Assembly: GCA_051294905.1 (NCBI GenBank)
Contig: CM119372.1
Coordinates: 34,598,001-34,662,000, forward strand
Source: Botryllus schlosseri
Lineage: Eukaryota
Reading direction: 5' to 3'
DNA length: 64,000 nt
The notes under the pieces were generated by a model, which was not told the origin of the DNA, ran no database searches, and saw nothing but the letters and a program-made list of their open reading frames with translations. Positions 18,256-63,779 of the stretch are shown in pieces (position 1 is the first letter of the stretch; each line of letters opens with the position of its first letter). A program made the translations under genes and the position numbers.

Positions 18256-19288
18256 CCTGAGACAATCGATCGTTACCAGAGATGAGCGGATTTGAAATTT
18301 CTATGTCCTAATCCAATCCAAATCCGAACCTTCAAATCCACATCCAAATCCTAATCCATGACTTTTTCATATTCAAGTCCATGTCCAATCCTAATCCGAT
18401 TCCAACTGGAAATTCAGAAAAAAAAACTATTTTATGCAATGGAGGGATTCGAAAATTGTCTTTTACAACCAACGATTCACTTGATTCAGTATTACCTAGT
18501 AACCATAAGTACATTAATAACTGATTTGAATAAAGTTTGTCGCCATTCGCCACACGACATTTCAATCTCCCAGAAAATATATAAATCCAATCCAAATCCT
18601 AATCCGTTCTGAAAAATATCTCCAATCCAAATCCAATCCAAATCCGACAAAATTTCACAAATCCTGTTTTTTCAAAACCTAATCCTAATCCATGCTCATT
18701 AGGGTTGTTCAGAATTGATCGACTTTCAAAATGTTGTGGTTTTCAGTCCGATTCCCATGCCTTATACCATAAAAACATATTCTAGGTACTTTTTTTCGTA
18801 ATTCATCCCTTGCATCCGTGTGCACATTGAGCTGGAAGAATATCGGCTAAAAATAGGGGATTCCCCTAAAATTTGAGTGTCGCTATTCGGACTAGGCTAG
18901 TAAAACGTCATATATAAGCTGGTTTTATGTAGCTATTGCGGTTGGAGTGCTACATAACCTCACTATAGAAAGTAATTGTCAGTTCAGGACACCATTTTCA
19001 TGTCCCACACTGCCTTAGAACTCCTCAAAACTGATAGTCATTTTGTTGGATCACCTATCCTACACTCCTCAACCCTACCCGAGATTGTTCATCAATTGCC
19101 GGGATCACCACGTGCAAGAATACAACTGTAAATGTATCATTCACTCACAGCCACATTATAAACATCACATTGTTCAAAGGAAACGAAACAAAAAGGCAAA
19201 GAAACAGATCAACTTGGCAAATACTACTTAAATCAGGTCCGGATGAAATGGTTGCTTTAGAGAAATCGGCATATCTGTTCCCGTTATC

Positions 19289-22524: not shown

Positions 22525-23600
22525 ATCACCAATTTGATGATCGACAACCGTTTACGGTACCATATTTTACATGGGTACATATATTTTCACGGTTATTCGC
22601 AAAACGATAACTATAAATTTCATAAATGTAGCAGGGGCCCCCCTCATAAAATATATGTAAGCTCTTATACCGCGTGCAGAAATTTAATTATCGACAACTG
22701 TTTACAGTACCATATTCTACATGGGTAGGCCTGCATGTATTTTTAGTTGTTCGCAAAATGATAACCAAAAATTGCGTAAATGTAGGTGCCCCCCTCATAA
22801 ATCGAAGTAATCTCGTACAACGCGTGCAGGATTTAATGATCAACAACTGTTTACGGTACCATATTCTACATGTGTACATATATTTCACTGTCATTCGCAA
22901 AATGATAACCAAAAATTGCGTAAATGTAGGAGGGGCCCCTCATAAATCGAAGTGAGCTCGCACGCTGAACGCGTGCCGAATTTTAATGATCGACAACCGT
23001 TTACAGTACCGTATTCCACATGAGTTGGCCTGCGCGTATTTTCAGTTATTTTCAAAATGATAACCAGAAATCGCATAAATGTAGAAGCCCCCCCTTATAA
23101 AATCAAAGTATGCTCTTTTACCACGCACAGAAATTTGATGATCGAAAACTGTTTACGGTACTACATGGGTAAGCCTACATGTGTTGCCACGGTTATTTGT
23201 AAAATGATAACTAAAAATTGAGTAAATGAGGGGTGTCCCATAAAATAAAAGTAAGCTCTTTTAACCGGTGCAGAAATTTAATGATCGACCACTGTTTACG
23301 GTTGACCTACCATATTCTACATGGGTAGGCCTGCATGTATTTATACGGTTATTCGCAAAATGATAACCAAAAATCGCATAAATGTAGGAGGGCCTTCCCT
23401 CATAAAATCAAAGTAAGCTCTTTTAACGCGGGAAGAAATTTGATGATCGACAACTGTTTACGAGACCATATTCTACATGGGTGCATGGATTTTCATGGTT
23501 ATTCGAAAAATGTTAATTTGAAAAATGAGAATTATGATTCACGCCTTTTTACGGTACTGTACCGTATTCTTCATGGATACAAGGATTTCCACGGTTATTT
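22525..23600. repeat. ~150-bp tandem repeat, about 7 diverged units
   Basis: ATTTRATGATCGACAACYGTTTAC recurs near 22532, 22681, 22831, 22981, 23131, 23274 and 23436. Confidence 0.9.
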
Positions 23601-24232: not shown

Positions 24233-26149
24233 TCAACAGATTCTTCTATCAGCTAATCTTTCCAACTTGTCGTTCAACGAAATCCATGGATCAGGTTTCA
24301 ACGAAACGTCCTTTGACGCAGCTGTTTTAACTTCACCTCTGTGGTGGATTCGTCCCAAAGCAGTAGGCAATATTGTGTCTATGTCGAAATCCCGAAACGC
24401 AGGGGTGGAAACATCAACAGTTGATACCATACACTTAGCGTCAATCAATGGTTCCGCAGAAACGTGTAACAATTTGTGGTGGGGTTTCCCACAGCGAGTG
24501 ACAGAACAACGCTCCTTACATTGATGAAAATGCTTCGGGTGGTCTTTGTGTCCTTTCGGGAATAAGCATCTAAAACACACTTTACCAGGCTTCATAACCA
24601 AGTCAGCCAATCGCTGGGCTGGTTTTAATTTCAGAAATTTAAAACAATCTTTCAATAAATGAGGTTTTGAGCAGTAGGTGCATGATAGCTGGACGGATTG
24701 AACCACGAGAGACTGGGCAGAAAATGAATTGTCAGGTTTATCGGTACCAACACTAACCAGCTCATCTTTATGTGGGGGCTTTTCACGTACGTCAACAGGG
24801 CAACGCCCATTCTGCGACTTACGCAACGATTCCATCGTCGCCAACTCGGTTCTTAGAAACTCAAACAGGAGATCAGAATCAGGAATCTTATCGGCTTCGA
24901 TCAAGGGGCTAGTTTTTCTGATCCAACGCTCATGCAACGTACCAGGCAACTGGGACTCTAGTACCTGTGTAAAGAGTTGGTCCCAAGAGACGTCATACTG
25001 CGATAAAACGGCCCTTTTAGCAGTAGCGGCATCGAGAAGTTGTCTGACTTTGTCGATCTTAAATTCTACTTTCTCACCCTGTAGTAAGTCTTCGATGTGA
25101 TTTCTCACGATCGCTTGCTTCTTTCCGTACCTTTTAAGAACGGCCTCTACTGCAGGCTCATAATTCACTGCCGCCGAGGGGAAACCATTGAGAAGGCCGG
25201 ATGACGAACCTTTAAGAGCTGCCTTTAAATACGAGATTTTGTAAAACGGACTGACCTTTGGATTTTTGTGAACCAATGGCTCGAACGACTCCCAAAATGC
25301 CGGAAAAGTCAAAATATCGCCATTGAATGTAGGCGGCACTATTCCACTCGGGAGGGATCCAGCAGCTTTTTCCGCTTCTTCGGCAGCTTTCAGCGATGAA
25401 GACTTGGATTTGGCAAGAGGAATGTGTACAAAATAAATTTCTTTTGATCTTCTCATGCCATCAATGATTTCGGTCTTGAAATCACCATCGTCAAGCTGGT
25501 CGACTTTTGAATCCACGAATGCCTTGAGATCGGTCATTGATATTTCTACCGACCGTATGAAGACCTCAATTTCTTCGACGAAGGTGGAATGTGCATGTTT
25601 CTTCTCCAGAGCTTGCAAAGACTCTAAGAGGTCAGCATTCATGCGCCTGAACTTCTTTATAACAACCTCGTGTAGACATGAATGTTCACTTCTTGCCGAT
25701 GAATGGTTATCGGACTGCTGGCGAATTTCTTCTAATTGCAGTCTGAATCGTCTTTCGGATTCTTCACGGTCTTGGGCGTGTTTCTGCTTGATCTCCTTGA
25801 GCTGCAGCTGAAACTTACGGTCAGAAGCTTCCCGATCTAATTGCTGCTGCTGCCGATCGAGATCTAGCTGATGCTTCATCATCTGAAAAAGCATAACCAG
25901 TTCAGATGATGTACTCTCGGTGGTGCTCAATGGAGAGGGCTTTGGTTCTTTCTTTTGTGAAGGTTTGTCGGAATCTCGGATTTTCCCTAATCGGTCAGTC
26001 AATACAGCTTCGCTCCCACTTGTAGCTTCGCCAAGTTCTTGTAATTCGGGTCGTAAATCGTCGACCGTCATCTTAGCTAATGGCTTCCAAGTCGGTGCCA
26101 AGGTTGGAGACTTGCGGGAATCCGTTGGAGACTTCACAAGAGACATCAC
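24233..26149 (-). CDS. gag: BEL/Pao Gag (SAP-like motif, coiled coil, DUF1759-like capsid, zinc knuckles); pol deleted
   Basis: 638-aa open frame; PPTFNGDILTFPAFWESF..KISYLK..NYEPAVEAVLKRYG; CTYCSKPHLLKDC, CFRCL..H..C and CSVTRCGKPHHKLLH knuckles; breaks off after ILPTA, where the protease would start. Confidence 0.9.
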   Translation of the reverse strand: MMSLVKSPTDSRKSPTLAPTWKPLAKMTVDDLRPELQELGEATSGSEAVLTDRLGKIRDSDKPSQKKEPKPSPLSTTESTSSELVMLFQMMKHQLDLDRQQQQLDREASDRKFQLQLKEIKQKHAQDREESERRFRLQLEEIRQQSDNHSSARSEHSCLHEVVIKKFRRMNADLLESLQALEKKHAHSTFVEEIEVFIRSVEISMTDLKAFVDSKVDQLDDGDFKTEIIDGMRRSKEIYFVHIPLAKSKSSSLKAAEEAEKAAGSLPSGIVPPTFNGDILTFPAFWESFEPLVHKNPKVSPFYKISYLKAALKGSSSGLLNGFPSAAVNYEPAVEAVLKRYGKKQAIVRNHIEDLLQGEKVEFKIDKVRQLLDAATAKRAVLSQYDVSWDQLFTQVLESQLPGTLHERWIRKTSPLIEADKIPDSDLLFEFLRTELATMESLRKSQNGRCPVDVREKPPHKDELVSVGTDKPDNSFSAQSLVVQSVQLSCTYCSKPHLLKDCFKFLKLKPAQRLADLVMKPGKVCFRCLFPKGHKDHPKHFHQCKERCSVTRCGKPHHKLLHVSAEPLIDAKCMVSTVDVSTPAFRDFDIDTILPTALGRIHHRGEVKTAASKDVSLKPDPWISLNDKLERLADRRIC

Positions 26150-26344: not shown

Positions 26345-26831
26345 CCACCCCAAAAGCCACCACTGGCTGTGAGTGAATGATACATTTACAGTTGTATTCT
26401 TGCACGTGGTGATCCCGGCAATTGATGAACAATCTCGGGTAGGGTTGAGGAGTGTAGGATAGGTGATCCAACAAAATGACTATCAGTCTTAGGCAGTTTT
26501 GAGGAGTTCTAAGGCAGTGTGGGACATGGAAATGGTGTCCTGAACTGACAATACTTTCTATAGTGAGGTTATGTAGCACTCCAACCGCAATAGCTACATA
26601 AAACCAGCTTATATATGACGTTTTACTAGCCTAGTCCGAATAGCGACACTCAAATTTTAGGGGAATCCCCTATTTTTAGCCGATATTCTTCCAGCTCAAT
26701 GTGCACACGGATGCAAGGGATGAATTACGAAAAAAAGTACCTAGAATATGTTTTTATGGTATAAGGCATGGGAATCGGACTGAAAACCACGACATTTTGA
26801 AAGTCGATCAATTCTGAACAACCCTAATGCT

Positions 26832-28541
26832 CCCAAGAGTACTGATGACATCGAGCTACTCGAGAATGGCAGCATCATCAAAGACCAGCTTGCAGTAGCA
26901 GAAAAGTTCAATCAGTATTTTTGCAACATTGGTCCGGATCTTGCAGCTTCAATACCAAACTCCTCCGATGACTTTCTCTCGTACTTGAGTCCTGGTCCTC
27001 AGAAATCCATTTTTCTTGAGCCGACAAGTGAAGGAGAAGTTGCGATCGTATTATCTGAAATGAAAAGTAACAAAGCAGTAGGACCCGATCTCATCCCAAC
27101 TCACTTTCTGAAGCTAGTCTTTAATATTATTGGTGATGTTATATGCATTTTCTTCAATGAGTCGATACGTCTAGGCATTTTCCCAGATGCACTGAAAACT
27201 GCCAGAGTAATGCCAGTGTTTAAGAAAGGCTGTAAAAAGCTAATTTCCAACTACCGACCAATATCTGTTTTGCCAAATCTTGCCACGGTTTTTGAGAAAC
27301 TGATTGACTGCCGACTTAAGAACTTTTTTGAATTGAATGCAGTACTTTCTCCGACCCAGCATGGATTCAGATCCAACCACAACACCAACCATGCAATACT
27401 ATCAATTGTAACGGACTATTACAAAACCATCAAGCAAAAAGAAAGTGGCTGCAGCATTTTTATCGATCTCCGCAAAGCTTTCGATACAGTTAACCACAGA
27501 ATCTTAAGATACAAGCTAGAACACTATGGAATCAGGGGTATTGCAGCAACTCTACTTGAAAGCTACCTGGCAAACCGCAAACAATTTGTTAAACTGGGGA
27601 CATTAAGAACGATTACCAGAGATATAACTTGTGGAGTGCCACAAGGCTCAGTCCTTGGACCGACTTTTTTCCTCATTTATATTAACGACATTGTTAATGC
27701 ATCTTTATTCCGCACAACGCTATTTGCTGATGATACTCACCTCTTCATAACCTCCAACACTGTCGATGATTTGCATGCATCTGTGAATAGGGAACTCCCA
27801 AAAGTGTCGAGATGGCTGCAAGCAAACAAACTAAGTTTGAATGCAGATAAGACCGAGATGCTCGTTTTAAATAATGCCAGTCATAATTTCACTGTGAACA
27901 TCAATCATAAACAAATCTCAATATGTGACTCAGCAAAATATCTCGGCGTCACCATTGATTCCAAATTGTCTTGGAAGCAGCATATTGAATGCACAATATC
28001 AAAACTAGCTCGGTGTGTGGGAATAATGACCCGTCTCCAATCTTTGGTTTCCAGATCAGTACTACGAACCATCTACTTCTCTCTTTTCCACTCGCATCTG
28101 CAATATGGAATCGTAGTATGGGGAAATGCATGTACAACATTTTTGTGCAGAATTCGAACCCTGCAAAACCGTGCGATACGGCTGATCTCATCTGTACCTT
28201 TACGTACCAATTTATCGCCTTACTACCGTAAGCATCGAATTTTGCGAGTTGATGAACTATATCGCTTCGAAGTATCAAAAGTTGTTCACAAATATTTTTC
28301 CAATAGTCTCCCTCCTGTGTTTGATGACTTTTTCATACCTACTAAACATGTCCATTCCCATTACACGAGATCTTCGTCTAAAGGAAACGTCTACTTACCC
28401 CAACCCAATAGCAACCTAACTAAGAGATCTATCGACTACTCGGGACCTATCATCTGGAATGCATTACCATCACATATCCGTGAATTGCCTTATAATAGAT
28501 TCAAAAAAGCCCTACTTGATCACCTCTTGTCGTTACACTAA
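26832..28541 (+). CDS. ORF2 reverse transcriptase of a 5'-truncated CR1/L2(Crack)-group LINE
   Basis: Frame open from the truncation point (PKSTDD..AEKFNQYF); NYRPIS, QHGFR, FIDLRKAFDTV, GVPQGSVLGP, FADDT, KYLGV motifs; no stops; no endonuclease domain. Confidence 0.93.
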   Translation, partial: PKSTDDIELLENGSIIKDQLAVAEKFNQYFCNIGPDLAASIPNSSDDFLSYLSPGPQKSIFLEPTSEGEVAIVLSEMKSNKAVGPDLIPTHFLKLVFNIIGDVICIFFNESIRLGIFPDALKTARVMPVFKKGCKKLISNYRPISVLPNLATVFEKLIDCRLKNFFELNAVLSPTQHGFRSNHNTNHAILSIVTDYYKTIKQKESGCSIFIDLRKAFDTVNHRILRYKLEHYGIRGIAATLLESYLANRKQFVKLGTLRTITRDITCGVPQGSVLGPTFFLIYINDIVNASLFRTTLFADDTHLFITSNTVDDLHASVNRELPKVSRWLQANKLSLNADKTEMLVLNNASHNFTVNINHKQISICDSAKYLGVTIDSKLSWKQHIECTISKLARCVGIMTRLQSLVSRSVLRTIYFSLFHSHLQYGIVVWGNACTTFLCRIRTLQNRAIRLISSVPLRTNLSPYYRKHRILRVDELYRFEVSKVVHKYFSNSLPPVFDDFFIPTKHVHSHYTRSSSKGNVYLPQPNSNLTKRSIDYSGPIIWNALPSHIRELPYNRFKKALLDHLLSLH

Positions 28542-28866: not shown

Positions 28867-29980
28867 ACTGAAGTGGTCCTGGCGGAATTTAGGCGGAATA
28901 TTTGTGATCACGTGAAACACTATTTTCGCGAACGCAGAATATTAACCCTCAACCGATGCACGGCAAATGTCATATTTCAGGCTGGATACGAAAGTGTACC
29001 TCACCTACAATTCAGATAATTAACACATCATCGGAAAGAGCGTTCAAATTACTTTATTTAAAATCCATTTCTAGATTCCAGATCGTCCTGCTTAATTACG
29101 AACACGATGACCAAGTTACGTATATTGCGCTGTCGGGCATTGTTGGCCGCCATTTCAATGTATGGCAAATTCTGTGATATCATCTTCGGTGATATTGCGA
29201 TTCGGGGAAGCATCATGATGCAGATGATGCTTCTCTGAATCCTAATGTCACTGAAAATGACGCCATGGAAAAAGATGGAATATTGGATTTTTCATATGAT
29301 GCTTCCCTGAATCGCAATATCACCGAAGATGATATCACAGAAAATGGTGGAATATTAAATCAATCCGATGATGCTTCTCTGAATCCTAATGTCACTGAAG
29401 ATGATGCCACGGAAAAAGATGGAATATTGCATTCTTCATATGATGCTTCCCCGAATCGCAATATCAACGAAGATGATATCACAGAATTTGCCATACATTG
29501 AAATGGCGGCCAACAATGCCCGACAGCGCAATATGCGTAACTTGGTCATCGTGTTCGTAATTAAGCAGGACGATCTGGAATCTAGAAATGGATTTTAAAT
29601 AAAGTAATTTGAACGCTCTTTCCGATGATGTGTTAATTATCTGAATTGTAGGTGAGGTACACTTTTAAATCCGGCCTTGAATGTGGAATGTGCCATACAT
29701 TGAAATAGCGGCCAACAATGCCCGACAGCGCAATATACGTAACTTGGTCATCGTGTTCGTAATTAAGCAGGACGATCTGGAATCTAGAAATGGATTTTAA
29801 ATAAAGTAATTTGAACGCTTTTTCCGATGATGTGTTAATTAGGCGAGGTACACTTTCGTATCCAGCCTGAAATATGACATTTGCCGTGCATCGGTTGAGG
29901 GTCAATATTCTGCGTTCGCGAAAATAGTGTTCCACGTGATCACAAATATTCCGCCGAAATTCCGCCAGGACCACTTCAGT
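28867..29980. mobile_element. Fold-back DNA element with ~350-bp arms and internal 63-bp repeats
   Basis: TIR ACTGAAGTGGTCCTGGCGGAATTT; perfect TSD TGAGTGAG (28859-28866, 29981-29988); part of the right arm duplicated; superfamily unassigned. Confidence 0.88.
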
Positions 29981-38325: not shown

Positions 38326-39446
38326 TATTGAAGTTCTTTACCTCCAAGAAGCTCTGTTATTACTGTATAAAATCCTGTCTTACTGTGTCAAAAACTTGTT
38401 GTTTTCAATTTGTATTTTCATATTTACCGGCAACTTACACTGTTTCTTTTATTGTACATTCTACAACCGATTCTTTTGAAATAAAACATTGTTTCGAGAA
38501 GAGCCTGTGGAAGTGAAGGTATTTCAGTTACATAATTTCGAGCTCTGCAGCGATAGGTACGGACATGCCACTTCAGACCACACAATATTGTGACATACAT
38601 CGCTACCACGCAATGTGGCATCTAAAAAAAATTCGATTATTGTGTTTTTTAGGTGCATAAATGCACGCGTTTAAGCTTACAGTGATGGATGACTGGCAAC
38701 ATTCTTTCCCTCAACGGCTACTGTTGAAGCCGATATTTCTCAGATTCGCTGGGCGAGAAATGAATTTAGGAGAAGCTTAGCTGACCTGATTTTGTAAGCA
38801 CTGTTACAGCGCAAACGATTTAAGTCTATTCAACAGCTGTGACAATCAGCTGTTGAGCGTGTTTGTTAGGCTTGTTTTTTTTTGCGTATTGGCACCGATT
38901 CCGATGGATACTGCACATTTTGTGGTATCGTTTGATATTATCAACCTATGAAATCGTTAGGCTTTTTCTTCTTCTTATTGTTTGTTGGCATGCACTGATT
39001 ATGCGTGGATGCTGCACATTTTGTGGTGTCTTTTGACAAACTAGATCAAATAAAGCGTTTTTGTGACTAATTCGAGGCTGAAACTATCTATTTAGAGGAC
39101 GATGCCAAAACTGCCAAAAAAAGTTATTTTTGGCAGTTTTGGCATTTGCCAAAAATAAGACGGCCTGGCGATAAGCCAAATTTCCGGGGGCTTCGCCCCA
39201 GACCCTACAGTTGGGCGATTGTTTTCACTTGTACTTGTAAGCACATTCATTCTACTCAGTGTAAGCAGAGAGTTTATGTAGCTTAATCGCGCCAATAGAG
39301 AAAATTTTCGGTCATTCATGACTGAATCGGTTTTCTCGCTGCCGAATTTTTGGCACACCTTTCGGGGTCCCATGCCAGCCTAAACTTAATTATGTGTTGG
39401 TACTTTGTGGTGCGGTAATGGCTATGATTTAAGTTCATTTGGAAAA

Positions 39447-40452
39447 TGTTATGATCGTGCATTTTACGTTGGTATCGTTTGTCTGTTATTTGTCTAGGAT
39501 TAGAAATTACCGACAATCATTATTTCCTCGTGTATCGTGCTTCGTATTTATACTCTGTGTTCTGTTGTCTACTTTTTCGTTTACCTGCACTCTGGATCGT
39601 GTCGCCTGTATTAAAGTTATTCTGCTGATAATATACTGATTTCATATTACAACATCGTCGTATGAGTTATTGTTCAAACAAGATCAAGAACATAACAATT
39701 GGTGTCAGAAGTGGGATTCGAACCCACGCATCCACTCGGAGGGGGTAAAGATTTCAACTTCGCGCTCCAAACACTTCTCGCTACTTACCGATGTGCACCG
39801 CACCCGGGCATAGACTGGAAAACGCATGCTGAGATTTTACATGGTCGGCAGCCGCACAATTTGTTAAGTTTATGCTCGCCCTTCGATAAATCGAAACCCG
39901 TTACGCCTGGACAATCAGTATCTCATTTCGAGATTGGTTCCTCGGTGTATACGCTCGCAGTTACCGACGCGGACCAAATGGGTTGCCGGCGTTGTGACGG
40001 AAATAATGGGACGCGTTGTGTACATTGTCAAAACAGATCATGGGCATTGGAGAAGGCATAAAAACCAACTCCAGCCACGCTTGATTTCCACTGGTGATGA
40101 AACAGCCACACAGGATGTCGCTCAGCCTCAACAGTCACAAACTGAACAACCATTGGCCAGAAATAGGGCACAACCTCCTGAAGCTAGTCCTGCTCGAACG
40201 TCTGGCAGTTATGTTCGTGCATTTTACGTTGGTATCGTCTCTTATTTGTCTATGATTAGAAATTACCGACAATCATTATTTCCTCGTGTGTCGTGCTTCG
40301 TGTTTATACCGTGTTCTGTTGTCTACTTTTTTCGTTTACCTGCACTCTGGATCGTGTCGTCTGTATTAAAGTTCTTCTGCTGATAATATACTGGTTTCAT
40401 ATTGCAACCTCGTCGTATAAGTTATTGTTCAAACAAGATCAACAACATAACA
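39447..40452 (+). mobile_element. Internally deleted Gypsy (Mag-like) LTR element, TRIM-sized
   Basis: LTRs 39447-39697 and ~40208-40452 (TGTTATG...CATAACA); TSD GAAAA (39442-39446, 40453-40457); tRNA-Leu PBS; integrase remnants LATYRCAPH..AEILHGRQ and KWVAGVV..G..VYIV..WRRHKNQL. Confidence 0.93.
39700..39741 (-). other. Primer-binding site: 42-nt copy of mature tRNA-Leu 3' end including CCA
   Basis: Reverse complement CTCCGAGTGGATGCGTGGGTTCGAATCCCACTTCTGACACCA = variable arm, T arm, acceptor strand, CCA. Confidence 0.88.
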
Positions 40453-41679
40453 GAAAATAATTTTGGGCTCTTTTCAAGCTCGGACCCTCTCCAATTGGGC
40501 GGTTTGGGGTGCCCCAGTTACGGTCCTGCACAAAATAATGAATCGAAAACGAATGATCGCGCAAACTGCGCTGTTTAGCGATGAGTCAGCTCGTAGCTGT
40601 TCTGTACTTGTCGCTCGCATGTCGTCAAATGACACGTCTTGAACTTTAAGTTAAATCGAACATGTTTCCAGCCCTAATGTTTCCTCACAAAGTTCCGAAT
40701 CACTTTAAAATTTGATGTTTTATTTATTTTATCAATGGATAAGCCTTCAACATGCATCTTGAATTTAAGGTATAAAATTGTAATATACCTGGCGGACCGG
40801 CATCGGTCAGCGGACCGGTGGTTGAGAACCACTGATATAGAGGCTATTTCGCCCAGTCTATTTCACTCACGACCGCGACGGCCAACATCTCCCAAAGTCT
40901 TCTACTTTACCAAGTTCAAATCATGAAAAGTAAAACGTTTTACCTAAAAGACTAACGGTTTAGTAGATGAGAAAGCAGTGCTAAAATCTTGCCACGTAAT
41001 GAAATAGTTCTGGTAGACAACACCTACCCGTGTCGTCCGAAAAAGTAGACGTACTCACTGAGTTCTGAGTACATCTGGTGAGCAATTCCGTTGTCTTTGA
41101 TCCAGCGACAATCTTTAGGGGAGCTCGAGAAATGATAACATGCTTCAACAAATTAATTAACAACAGTGGGACTGCCCGAAGCTATAGCCCGCGAGCAGAT
41201 CACGAACTACGAATAGTCTCAACTAGAGCTCGAGCGCAGACTTCGACAACGAGAAAATTTTCACCTTTTCCAAACTAGATTAGAATTCTATTAGAGCTAC
41301 ACAGTTTTTCATAATTACACTAGAACTGGAATAATAGCTACATATATTTTTTTAATCATAATAACCGAATTTGCGAAAACGTGGAAATTGAATGGAGTTC
41401 AGTTCATATCAAATCATCTCATAGGCATGAGGATGGCAAAAGTCTGTACACCGAGCTTGGTTTGTTGCGCAATTTCCAGCTCTCCAGTAGCATTTTCAGG
41501 AAAACCAGAATTAGAATAGAAATAAAATTACGCCATTGAAACATTTCACAAATTAGAATAGAATTAGCTTATCAGCATTTCGCTGTAATTAGTCTTTTTG
41601 GAAAACTAGAATTATCCAGTTGTCCAAGTATGCCCGAGCAATAATTATCGATTTGCCAGTAATATGGAGTCCATATGAC

Positions 41680-61005: not shown

Positions 61006-63779
61006 CAGTGGTTCTCAACCTTGCCCCCAGCGCCCCCCAGGAGGCGCTGGCGATTTTGAAGGGGGGCGGAAACGCTCATGGGGCGATATGGGGGGCGCTG
61101 GGCTCAGGGGGGCGGTATGGGGGGCGCTGGAGAAAAATGGCTTCGCAGTAGATGATGTGGTGATAGGACATATCCTTAATGAGTATTCAGAGCAAATTAA
61201 CACCGAAAACTTCGTTACATATAGCCTTCAAAATACCTATAGGTTTAATTGTCCATGGGTCCCTAAATGACTGACACCGAATGTTCCTGTCTTGGCAATC
61301 TGAACCCCAGAAGACAAATTCCATCTGGCAGGGAAAAATTATATGTCAGTGAAGAAATACCAATCTGAAATCGTGTGCGTCTTTTAGTTTAGTACGATTG
61401 GGCGACAGGGATATTCCTGTTGCGGTTGCGATCTCAGACACCTTGTCCTCTCCTCACCTGGTGACCTGTGGTGTGCCCCAAGGCTCAGTACTTGGACCGG
61501 TCCTTTTCACCTTATATGTCAACGACATTTTTGAAACCTCCTCATTGAACACCACACTGTTCGCTGATGATACTCACCTCCTCTCTTCCGCGTCTTCGAT
61601 GGCAGAGCTGGATGCCCTGACTGGTGATCAAATGCCCAAAGTCCATGAGTGGACGGCCCAGAACAACCTTTGCATAAACGCCTCGAAATCGCAATTGCTG
61701 ACAGTAAATTCAAAAAATAACCTAACCGTTAATATCGCTGGTCAGCCCGTTTCCAACACAGATAATGCCAAATATCTCGGGGTTTTACTGGACTCGAACA
61801 TGTCCTGGAAGAGTCATATTCAGTCCCTAGGAACTAAATTATCACCGAAGTGCGGCCTGTTCTACAGCCTTAGGCGCTTCATGCCAGCATGGGTTCTTCT
61901 GATACTCTTTAAATCCTTAATCCAATCGAAGTTAGACTATGGCATCCTCTGTTGGGGGGCTGCCAGTAAAACTGCACTCAAGCCACTGCAAAAACTACAA
62001 CATAAAGTACTCCGAATCATAGCTAGGGCCCCAAAGGGGCCTGGCTGCCCATCCAACAAGTCGCTGCTGAAGAGATTCGGCGTCCTAAACATAGAAGATA
62101 TGCGGAAACTAGAAAACGCCAAGTTTATGTATCAGTTCCACTGTGGTCGTTGCCCCGAATATTTCAATGACTTCTTTACCTCGGAATCAAAAGCGCACAA
62201 GTACAACACACGCGCGTCCACGTCGTCCAAATATCATATGATCGACCGAAAAGATCATCGCTCTATCAAATATGCCGGACCTGATGTGTGGAACAGTATC
62301 CCGCCGGCCATCCGACAGTCGACGAGCATGTCCACATTCAAGTCGAAATATAAGCAACTACTACTAAATAAATACAGTCCATCCTCAAGATTACCGGACC
62401 ACGACTGACCTATCGATCTCGCTTCCCATGACATGCCGCCCCATTTCTTGTCGCTTTCTTTTTCTATACTATCTTCTTTACTTTCATTCAGTGTGCATGC
62501 CTCCTCTTTACATCGCCTAGGCCAAGGTGGGTGTCAGATTTCATAGACTAGTCCTTGTCGCTTCGACATCTTCCTGTCTCTTCATTGTATCGCATTTTTT
62601 GTGGTGTATTGAACTGATAAAATTGCTAATAAACCAATGATCATGATGATGATGTTGGGCGATATCCCCGTTGAGCGATTCCATATTTTTTGATATTGCA
62701 GACAGGGGGTCACGAAATAACATCATGCAACGAAGTCATACCAACGGGTTCGCCCGCCCGAATATGTTTAATTATTAGTAACGGGCCCTACAGTTTCCAA
62801 GAAACCTCACAATGTTCGCTTTAAGTTTTGATGAGTCTGCGCACACTCAACAACTCACTGCGCTGACCCTTGGACAACAGTGCGTAACGACTAAAAAAAG
62901 GTAATAACTCCGGATTTGTTGTGCGCAACGTAGATTTTATGTGCGCAGAGACCGTGTCAGCACTGCGCACGTGCGCAGCTTAGAGGGAACATTGCACCTC
63001 ACTCAGCTCTACCGGTAAATGTGTTTACGTGAGCAGAGAGAGAATAAAAATTGATTTCAATTTACAGGCAATTCCCGATGATATTGACCAATTCAATCAT
63101 TAATTAGTGAAATTTTTCGCACTTCACGCGACTAGGCGAGAATAGCTGCCTCAGTAAATGAACGCCCAATGTAGATACCTAATAGGCTATCAGCAAATAG
63201 CGGACAGCCTAATGGGGGTCTGGGAGTGAAGTCCCCGGAAGTTTGGTTTATCACCCGATGGGGGCCCAGGACCAACGTTTTTTGTTTGGGGGGGGGCTGA
63301 CGAAGTGCTGTTACGGCCCTGGTAACGAATAATTGTACCTGCGGGCACGCCCGAATATGTTTACTTATTCATTACGTGCCCTTTATTTTCCTATACAACA
63401 GCTCACTCAGAGCTACTGGTAAATCTGATTACGTGGGCTGAGAGGATAAAAAGTTTATAGCGACTTATGTATGTAATTACCACCTATTCATTCATGCATT
63501 ATAGAAAATTTTGGTACCTAGGGCGACCAGGCCACACAAACTTTGCTCACCATCAAAATCATGATATGGGATTCGTGGGGGCGAAGCCCTCAGAAGTTCG
63601 GTTTATCACGCTATGGGTGCGCAAGGCAATCGTTTTTTGGGGGGTTGACGAAGTGATGTTACGGCCCTCCCTCTTACTCATTGTCTTTATTACATTCCTT
63701 ACAATATGAAGTTGGGGGGCGCTGGAGCACGATAATTTTTGAAAGGGGGCGCTGGAAGAAAAAAGGTTAAGATCCACTG
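61006..63779. mobile_element. hAT Charlie/Buster-type element carrying a nested LINE and MITEs
   Basis: CAGTGGTTCTCAACC...GGTTAAGATCCACTG; perfect TSD TTCTAGGC (60998-61005, 63780-63787); GGGGGCGCTG subterminal repeats. Confidence 0.88.
61398..62408 (+). CDS. C-terminal half of RT ORF2 of a second 5'-truncated CR1/L2-group LINE (element ~61420-62654)
   Basis: GVPQGSVLGP, FADDT, KYLGV, DYGILCWG, LQHKVLR motifs; homologous to but diverged from 26832-28541; (ATG)n tail. Confidence 0.92.
   Translation: MGDRDIPVAVAISDTLSSPHLVTCGVPQGSVLGPVLFTLYVNDIFETSSLNTTLFADDTHLLSSASSMAELDALTGDQMPKVHEWTAQNNLCINASKSQLLTVNSKNNLTVNIAGQPVSNTDNAKYLGVLLDSNMSWKSHIQSLGTKLSPKCGLFYSLRRFMPAWVLLILFKSLIQSKLDYGILCWGAASKTALKPLQKLQHKVLRIIARAPKGPGCPSNKSLLKRFGVLNIEDMRKLENAKFMYQFHCGRCPEYFNDFFTSESKAHKYNTRASTSSKYHMIDRKDHRSIKYAGPDVWNSIPPAIRQSTSMSTFKSKYKQLLLNKYSPSSRLPDHD

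What the first reader, a model, noticed from the sequence alone, without database searches (positions are those of the whole stretch)
39698..39790. LTR element carries 42 nt of its primer tRNA-Leu, then jumps straight into integrase
Seen: 2 nt after the 5' LTR there is a tRNA-Leu complement running from CCA through the T arm into the variable arm; within a few bases the sequence becomes the integrase core end. gag, PR, RT and RNase H are absent, no polypurine tract is visible before the 3' LTR, yet both LTRs and a perfect GAAAA TSD are present. Known: PBSs are usually at most ~18 nt because m1A58 stops plus-strand copying. Inference: RT read through an under-modified primer and template-switched, creating a 1-kb TRIM-like element in one event; a fossil of tRNA-modification read-through.
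Basis: partly seen in the sequence, partly recalled or inferred. Interest (0 to 1): 0.7.

Follow-up and report, generated by a model that had tools for sequence, protein, structure and literature searches.

The report
Retrotransposon fossil of over-copied tRNA primer
A broken jumping gene in a marine animal carries a much longer copy of its tRNA primer than usual, fused straight to the end of its integrase gene, the likely scar of a copying error that also turns up in other animals' elements.

Summary
Observation confirmed. A 1,006-bp Ty3/Gypsy remnant (39447-40452; LTRs 232/245 identical; GAAAA TSD) carries a 41-42-nt complement of tRNA-Leu(CAA), CCA included (40/42 to a fetched gene). It is joined with 1 nt of overlap to integrase residue 1200 of a 1,372-aa relative that is 93% identical. 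Best reading: plus-strand strong-stop DNA ran past A58 into the primer and mis-transferred into integrase.

Corrections: a second deletion removed the integrase tail and polypurine tract, so 'one event' is not shown; it is not a TRIM; under-modification of the primer is inferred.

The case is not unique. A metagenome scan gave 58 loci (38 distinct), 26 read as LTR ends with 28-57 nt of tRNA. End points differ within single LTR families, 5 of 7 copies reaching nt 49 stop before G37, two cross the intron site without an intron, and two jump into gag or RNase H as here.

Over-extension is known from retroviral biochemistry; my 10 literature searches showed no report of such integrated fossils. 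This family's normal PBS length could not be read. The scan's earlier notes held nothing similar.

The parts
39442..39446 (+). target-site duplication GAAAA, left copy
39447..39697 (+). 5' LTR, 251 nt, TG...CA
   Evidence: contig loose ends pile up at 39447 and 39697 (table 7)
39698..39699 (+). 2-nt spacer
39700..39717 (+). ordinary 18-nt primer-binding site, complement of tRNA-Leu positions 76-59 including CCA
39718..39741 (+). over-extension: complement of tRNA-Leu(CAA) positions 58 to 45 (T arm and variable arm); last base shared with integrase
   Evidence: 22 of 24 identical to gene L018 and to copies L023, L047
39741..40207 (+). integrase fragment, end of core and C-terminal part (P0001 residues 1200-1355), frameshifted, cut at both ends
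40207..40208 (+). second deletion junction: last ~16 integrase codons, stop, polypurine tract and first LTR base missing
   Evidence: loose ends behind 40202 in X5 (11 contigs) and X23 (21 reads) continue as the P0001 tail (table 7)
40208..40452 (+). 3' LTR
40453..40457 (+). target-site duplication GAAAA, right copy

Best explanation
A dead copy of a high-copy Ty3/Gypsy (Mag-like) retrotransposon, made by a faulty plus-strand transfer. (1) tRNA-Leu(CAA) primed the minus strand as usual [established pathway; PBS shown]. (2) Plus-strand strong-stop DNA started at the polypurine tract, since the 5' LTR begins correctly [shown], copied the LTR, and did not stop at A58 but went on through the T arm and variable arm [product shown; cause inferred: unmodified A58 or bypass of m1A]. 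It probably ran to the next hard stop at G37 and was trimmed or mis-paired back to nt 41-42 [inferred from the survey]. (3) Its 3' end no longer fitted the PBS and was extended on the minus strand inside integrase with 1 nt of overlap, dropping about 3.6 kb of gag-pol [junction shown, timing inferred]. (4) Both outer ends were intact, so integrase supplied by the particle inserted it with a 5-bp duplication [shown]. (5) A separate deletion of roughly 60-75 nt removed the integrase tail and PPT, most likely after insertion [junction shown; timing inferred, about 60:40]. It has no function and, lacking a PPT, should not move again.
For: Only plus-strand copying of the primer gives tRNA complement in this orientation, with CCA and in register with the PBS. 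No leader or gag base lies between the tRNA copy and integrase. Full-length relatives exist with integrase continuous across the junction: P0001; contig pieces starting at 39754 and 39759 carry 73 and 102 other letters upstream (table 8). Survey: 20 of 33 non-gene clusters have CA directly before the tRNA copy (0 of 5 genes). Three LTR families, 5 clusters each, show different end points (35-57 nt). L014 jumps into RNase H, L046 into a gag zinc knuckle, and 7 of 33 jump back into their own LTR end (one weak). Five of 7 copies that reach nt 49 stop at 49-50, before G37 (P 1e-4; 0.002 after correcting for 15 windows). L017 and L046 cross the site where 5 of 5 fetched genes have an intron, without it. 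Over-extension to positions 55, 54 and 37 is documented in HIV-1 in vitro (PMC13191261 section 10; PMC8599865 passages).
Against: The PBS length of this family's full-length members was not seen; the depth dip over 39729-39765 cannot be used because human-like contigs are filtered. Inherited long PBSs exist: L007 and L024 have different LTR ends but the same 43-nt copy and the same next bases. The window's copy ends short of the intron site, so RNA versus gene template cannot be told for it. Its end point is not a marked stop (4 of 14 stop at 41-43, P 0.11). Junction overlap is only 1 nt. The G37 test is post hoc, several end points were read by eye, 15 of the 26 clusters used belong to three families of probably one host, and the intron-bearing genes come from other organisms than L017 and L046. 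The missing PPT is not predicted by the mechanism.
Confidence: 0.78

Rival explanations
1. The long PBS is a fixed trait of the family or a subfamily, from an older read-through that re-annealed in the leader and stayed viable; this copy only suffered a mis-transfer or deletion at the end of that PBS.
For: L007/L016 and L024 share one 43-nt copy and the following bases behind different LTR ends; L033 has a copy running to position 38 followed 25 nt later by an open 485-aa copia gag frame; L041 has 28 nt and a 379-aa ORF. This family's PBS was not read.
Against: In the three families sampled five times each, end points differ from copy to copy. In three DNA runs the depth over 39729-39765 is fully explained by 11-13 nt of integrase coverage, though the filter caveat makes this weak.
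Confidence: 0.12
2. Post-insertion DNA repair: a break in a full-length copy was patched by invading a tRNA-Leu gene through the 15-nt PBS homology, copying 23-24 nt and rejoining inside integrase.
For: The copy is old (5.3% LTR divergence) and has a second deletion. Another family copy joins LTR position 39672 to integrase within 8 nt of the same site without any tRNA (table 5c), so plain deletions land here too. The window's copy does not reach the intron site.
Against: Parallel cases are frequent, pile up before G37, and two lack the intron, which points to mature RNA as the template.
Confidence: 0.08
3. A tRNA-derived SINE or tRNA pseudogene inserted at the deletion point, or a chance match.
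For: The window is rich in LINEs.
Against: No tail, no own duplication, exact register with the PBS 2 nt after the LTR; 22 of 24 match beyond 18 nt has chance 5e-11.
Confidence: 0.02

Closest known systems
Over-extended plus-strand strong-stop products of HIV-1 and M-MLV (P3-P5 in PMC13191261 section 10, read whole; PMC8599865, passages)
   Same: Copying beyond m1A58 into the primer, with later stops at 55, 54 and 37.
   Different: Described in vitro or in TRMT6-mutant cells, and the long products are said not to complete or integrate. Here they are integrated, fixed copies of retrotransposons, rescued by mis-transfer.
Plus-strand mis-transfer deletions in spleen necrosis virus vectors (Pulsinelli and Temin 1991; recalled, not held in the library)
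   Same: As recalled: large deletions that start at the PBS end, one with a few extra tRNA bases.
   Different: As recalled 2-3 extra bases in a laboratory vector, against 23-24 here and up to 39 in the survey.
Primer over-extension sequence of lentiviruses and spumaviruses (PMC13191261 section 10)
   Same: tRNA complementarity that goes on past the 18-nt PBS.
   Different: About 22 nt, conserved and functional; here 41-42 nt and tied to a deletion. L007/L024, L033 and L041 may be longer inherited analogues.
Mag-like Ty3/Gypsy retrotransposons (K02A2.6-like clusters; PMC2577118, passages)
   Same: Parent P0001: single gag-pol frame, two zinc knuckles, RT-RNase H-integrase order, 5-bp TSD.
   Different: No tree against named references was built; the window copy has lost all but the integrase end.
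TRIMs, including Helenus and Ajax (10.1101/010850, passages; PMC10886601, abstract and passages)
   Same: Under 1.5 kb, two LTRs, TSD, tRNA-derived sequence.
   Different: TRIMs keep PBS and PPT, are multi-copy and lack pol; Helenus has its tRNA sequence inside the LTRs and unrelated to its primer.

Membership tests
Ty3/Gypsy LTR retrotransposon | Two LTRs with TG...CA ends and a short TSD | tested here: met
   (3' LTR lacks its first T)
Ty3/Gypsy LTR retrotransposon | RT - RNase H - integrase order with Gypsy-type domains | tested here: met
   in the 93%-identical parent P0001; the window pieces alone hit no Pfam model
Mag clade | Two CCHC arrays in gag, single frame | tested here: met
   P0001 sequence; criterion from PMC2577118 passages, shared with Micropia/Mdg3
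Mag clade | RT/RNase H/integrase phylogeny with named members | not tested
   no named reference set was fetched; only automatic K02A2.6-like labels
TRIM | Size under 1,500 bp with TSD | tested here: met
   1,006 bp
TRIM | No retrotransposon coding sequence | tested here: not met
   467 nt of integrase; criterion from 10.1101/010850
TRIM | PBS and PPT both present | tested here: not met
   PPT deleted
TRIM | Two or more copies with different TSDs | tested here: inconclusive
   no second copy in the window, none among listed pieces (most rows not shown), no protein spanning the junction; no genome held
Plus-strand over-extension / mis-transfer product | tRNA complement with CCA, in register with the PBS, longer than 18 nt | tested here: met
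Plus-strand over-extension / mis-transfer product | Deletion starts exactly where the tRNA copy ends; 5' LTR start intact | tested here: met
Plus-strand over-extension / mis-transfer product | Parent family has a normal-length PBS | tested here: inconclusive
   depth argument confounded by filter; gag fragments gave no upstream reading
Plus-strand over-extension / mis-transfer product | PPT kept in front of the 3' LTR | tested here: not met
   needs a second deletion (table 7)
Plus-strand over-extension / mis-transfer product | Primer lacked m1A58 | not testable with these tools
   T opposite A58 at 39718; m1A gives both arrest and mixed read-through (PMC4787781 passages)

The most novel reading that the evidence does not exclude
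Integrated over-extension products are a recurrent, apparently undescribed class of LTR-element insertions in animals, in both Gypsy and Copia. Their end points map the primer tRNA's modifications in the germ line (leak at A58, hard stop at G37), some become heritable long PBSs, and they are a route by which LTR elements capture up to three quarters of a mature tRNA.
Probability: 0.5. Interest if true: 0.7.

Novelty: new variant of a known kind. Interest (0 to 1): 0.5.

Why it matters
The single copy is junk. The class matters: whether m1A58 sets the plus-strand stop in vivo was argued for decades and rests on HIV work in vitro and in mutant cells, where long products are treated as dead ends. 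If genomes keep many integrated copies of such products, PBS length and the base opposite A58 become a free, genome-wide readout of primer modification across species, and they explain a kind of large deletion and tRNA capture in LTR elements.

Tried and rejected
No genome held; records behind metagenome loci not held, so TSDs and PPTs of the analogues were not seen. ARAGORN found no tRNA gene in the window. No RNA holder listed; X23 reads lay on the family but 97% run on unlike, so they say nothing on this copy. Depth dip at 39729-39765: not used as evidence (filter). Viral collection: 1 locus with an 18-nt PBS, 0 for the 27-nt pattern, no P0001 relative. Scans leaving position 58 free gave 1 genome and 7 viral loci, prokaryote-type tRNAs or their remnants, no LTR ends, so misincorporation at A58 was not measured. 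A junction-spanning protein was not found; gag fragments P0002-P0005 gave no PBS reading. A special stop at U44 was considered and dropped (P 0.11). Seven survey clusters without an LTR-like end (L003, L020, L025, L030, L032, L044, L058) were left out of the end-point count. Earlier-findings look-ups gave nothing relevant.

Full report
1. Observation. The element spans 39447-40452 (1,006 bp). The LTRs are 39447-39697 and 40208-40452, 232 of 245 aligned bases identical, flanked by GAAAA on both sides; the 3' LTR lacks its first T. After a 2-nt spacer, 39700-39741 is the complement of a tRNA 3' end with CCA, a perfect T stem and a variable-arm hairpin. The host genome is not held, so I compared it with tRNA-Leu(CAA) genes fetched from metagenome contigs: 40 of 42 to L018, 34-36 of 42 to the other four genes, which differ in the variable arm. 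Beyond nt 18 the match to L018 is 22 of 24 (chance 5e-11). Two mismatches are within what LTR divergence predicts.

2. Parent element. The frame after 39741 is 93% identical to residues 1200-1269 of P0001, and the next frame 82% to 1278-1355. P0001 is a 1,372-aa gag-pol with two zinc knuckles and RT, RNase H, integrase domains, near K02A2.6-like clusters: Ty3/Gypsy, Mag-like as a lead (PMC2577118 passages; no tree). The family is abundant: 11,056, 2,727 and 1,152 contig pieces from three runs and 437 RNA reads lay on 39100-40205. The host appears to be a repeat-rich marine animal (inference).

3. Two junctions, not one. At the 5' junction, family contigs show the natural integrase letters before 39741 (table 5c); only G39741 fits both sides, so the tRNA copy is 41 or 42 nt, with no leader or gag base left. 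At the 3' side, 11 contigs and 21 reads continue behind 40202 with the integrase tail of P0001 (table 7), whereas the window goes straight into the LTR. About 16 codons, the stop, the polypurine tract and one LTR base are gone; a 5-nt match between tail and LTR start lies 3 nt beyond the junction. Because the 5' LTR starts correctly, a PPT was present when the plus strand began, so this deletion is either later or came from a second template (inference).

4. Is it unique? One scan of the metagenome collection for 26 nt of tRNA-Leu 3' end with CCA gave 58 loci, 38 distinct clusters: 5 intron-bearing genes and 33 others. Of the 33, 20 have CA directly before the copy and 24 within 2 nt, against 0 of 5 genes directly. 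Three LTR-end families have 5 clusters each, with different end points: 42-57, 35-57 and 36-50 nt. After the copy, L014 enters RNase H (P0001 residue 839 on), L046 a gag zinc knuckle, 7 of 33 return to their own LTR end above a cross-family control (L049 only barely), L033 leads to an open copia gag frame and L041 to a 379-aa frame with no Pfam hit. L017 and L046 run 57 nt through the anticodon with no intron, where 5 of 5 fetched genes have one; those genes are from other organisms. For 26 events (7 clusters without an LTR-like end dropped, L007/L024 merged, L015 counted twice), 5 of 7 that reach nt 49 stop at 49-50 (P 1e-4, 0.002 corrected; post hoc; some ends read by eye). That is just before G37, which I recall as m1G in tRNA-Leu. 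It is also the intron site, but what follows is pol in L014, LTR end in L015 and L023, and gag leader in L033; in L047 it is unidentified. Two other events end at 42, as here; 41-43 is not enriched (P 0.11). No second LTR or TSD was seen for most survey loci, so their LTR status rests on CA ends, shared ends and what follows.

5. Mechanism. RT can write tRNA complement on the plus strand only by copying its primer. PMC13191261 (section 10, read whole) and PMC8599865 (passages) describe the major stop at m1A58, minor stops at 55, 54 and 37, and state that long products cannot complete normal transfer. The window and survey loci look like such products rescued by mis-transfer to an internal site or to the LTR end (confidence 0.78). 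Whether A58 was unmodified is not shown: the base is the correct T, but m1A gives both arrest and mixed read-through (PMC4787781 passages), and my pattern required T.

6. Against. This family's normal PBS was not seen. The low depth over 39729-39765 equals 11-13 nt of integrase coverage in all three DNA runs, but the tool filters human-like contigs, so it is not evidence. L007 and L024 show that a long PBS can be inherited, which keeps that rival at 0.12. DNA repair from a tRNA gene cannot be excluded for this copy (0.08); another family copy joins the LTR to nearly the same integrase site with no tRNA (table 5c).

7. Known or new. Not a TRIM: it fails the no-pol and PPT criteria (10.1101/010850 passages; PMC10886601 abstract and passages). 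It works like the mis-transfer deletions of retroviral vectors (Pulsinelli and Temin 1991; recalled, not held). Ten full-text searches listed no paper on integrated retrotransposon copies with long primer over-extension; I saw most hits only as listings, also read passages of PMC7472051 and PMC11251516, opened no supplements, and older subscription papers and Repbase notes are outside the library. Verdict: real, a new variant of a known error, one instance of a recurrent class; interest 0.5.

Noticed in passing
window 39672 / 39741 (run X3, table 5c): Two contigs (depth 17 and 12) join LTR position 39672 to integrase within 8 nt of the window's junction, without tRNA: a second, independent deletion landing at the same G-rich integrase site.
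   Followed up: partly
L007:343-368, L016, L024:661-686: Two different LTR ends share one 43-nt tRNA copy and the next bases; L007's contig is labelled with coverage 1525. Looks like a family with an inherited long PBS.
   Followed up: partly
L033:1-1455 (minus strand): Copia gag-pol frame, open for 485 aa to the locus edge, 25 nt after a tRNA-Leu copy that runs to position 38: over-extension in an apparently intact element.
   Followed up: partly
L015:445-523: Two tRNA copies in tandem (49 and 42 nt) separated by the last 4 nt of the LTR: two successive over-extensions or a slip back to the LTR end.
   Followed up: partly
L017 and L046: Two different LTR families both end at exactly nt 57 (tRNA position 30); unexplained.
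   Followed up: no
L034:427 onward in PBS orientation: 36-nt copy, then a duplicate of the last 42 LTR bases, then a second, decayed PBS.
   Followed up: partly
window 24233-26149 (minus): BEL/Pao-type gag frame (DUF1759, E 2e-21) with a weak N-terminal SAP-domain hit (E 0.003, below cut-off).
   Followed up: no
window 26784-28541 and 61353-62408 (plus): LINE-type reverse transcriptase frames (first: RVT_1, E 4e-34; second by motif only).
   Followed up: no
window 18697-19153 and 26364-26829: 467-nt inverted repeat pair, 97% identical, 7 kb apart.
   Followed up: no
window 28867-29980: Nested inverted repeats of 220-300 nt at 87-94% identity, foldback-like.
   Followed up: no
window 22531-23526: Tandem array with a period of about 150 nt, 75-80% identical units.
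   Followed up: no
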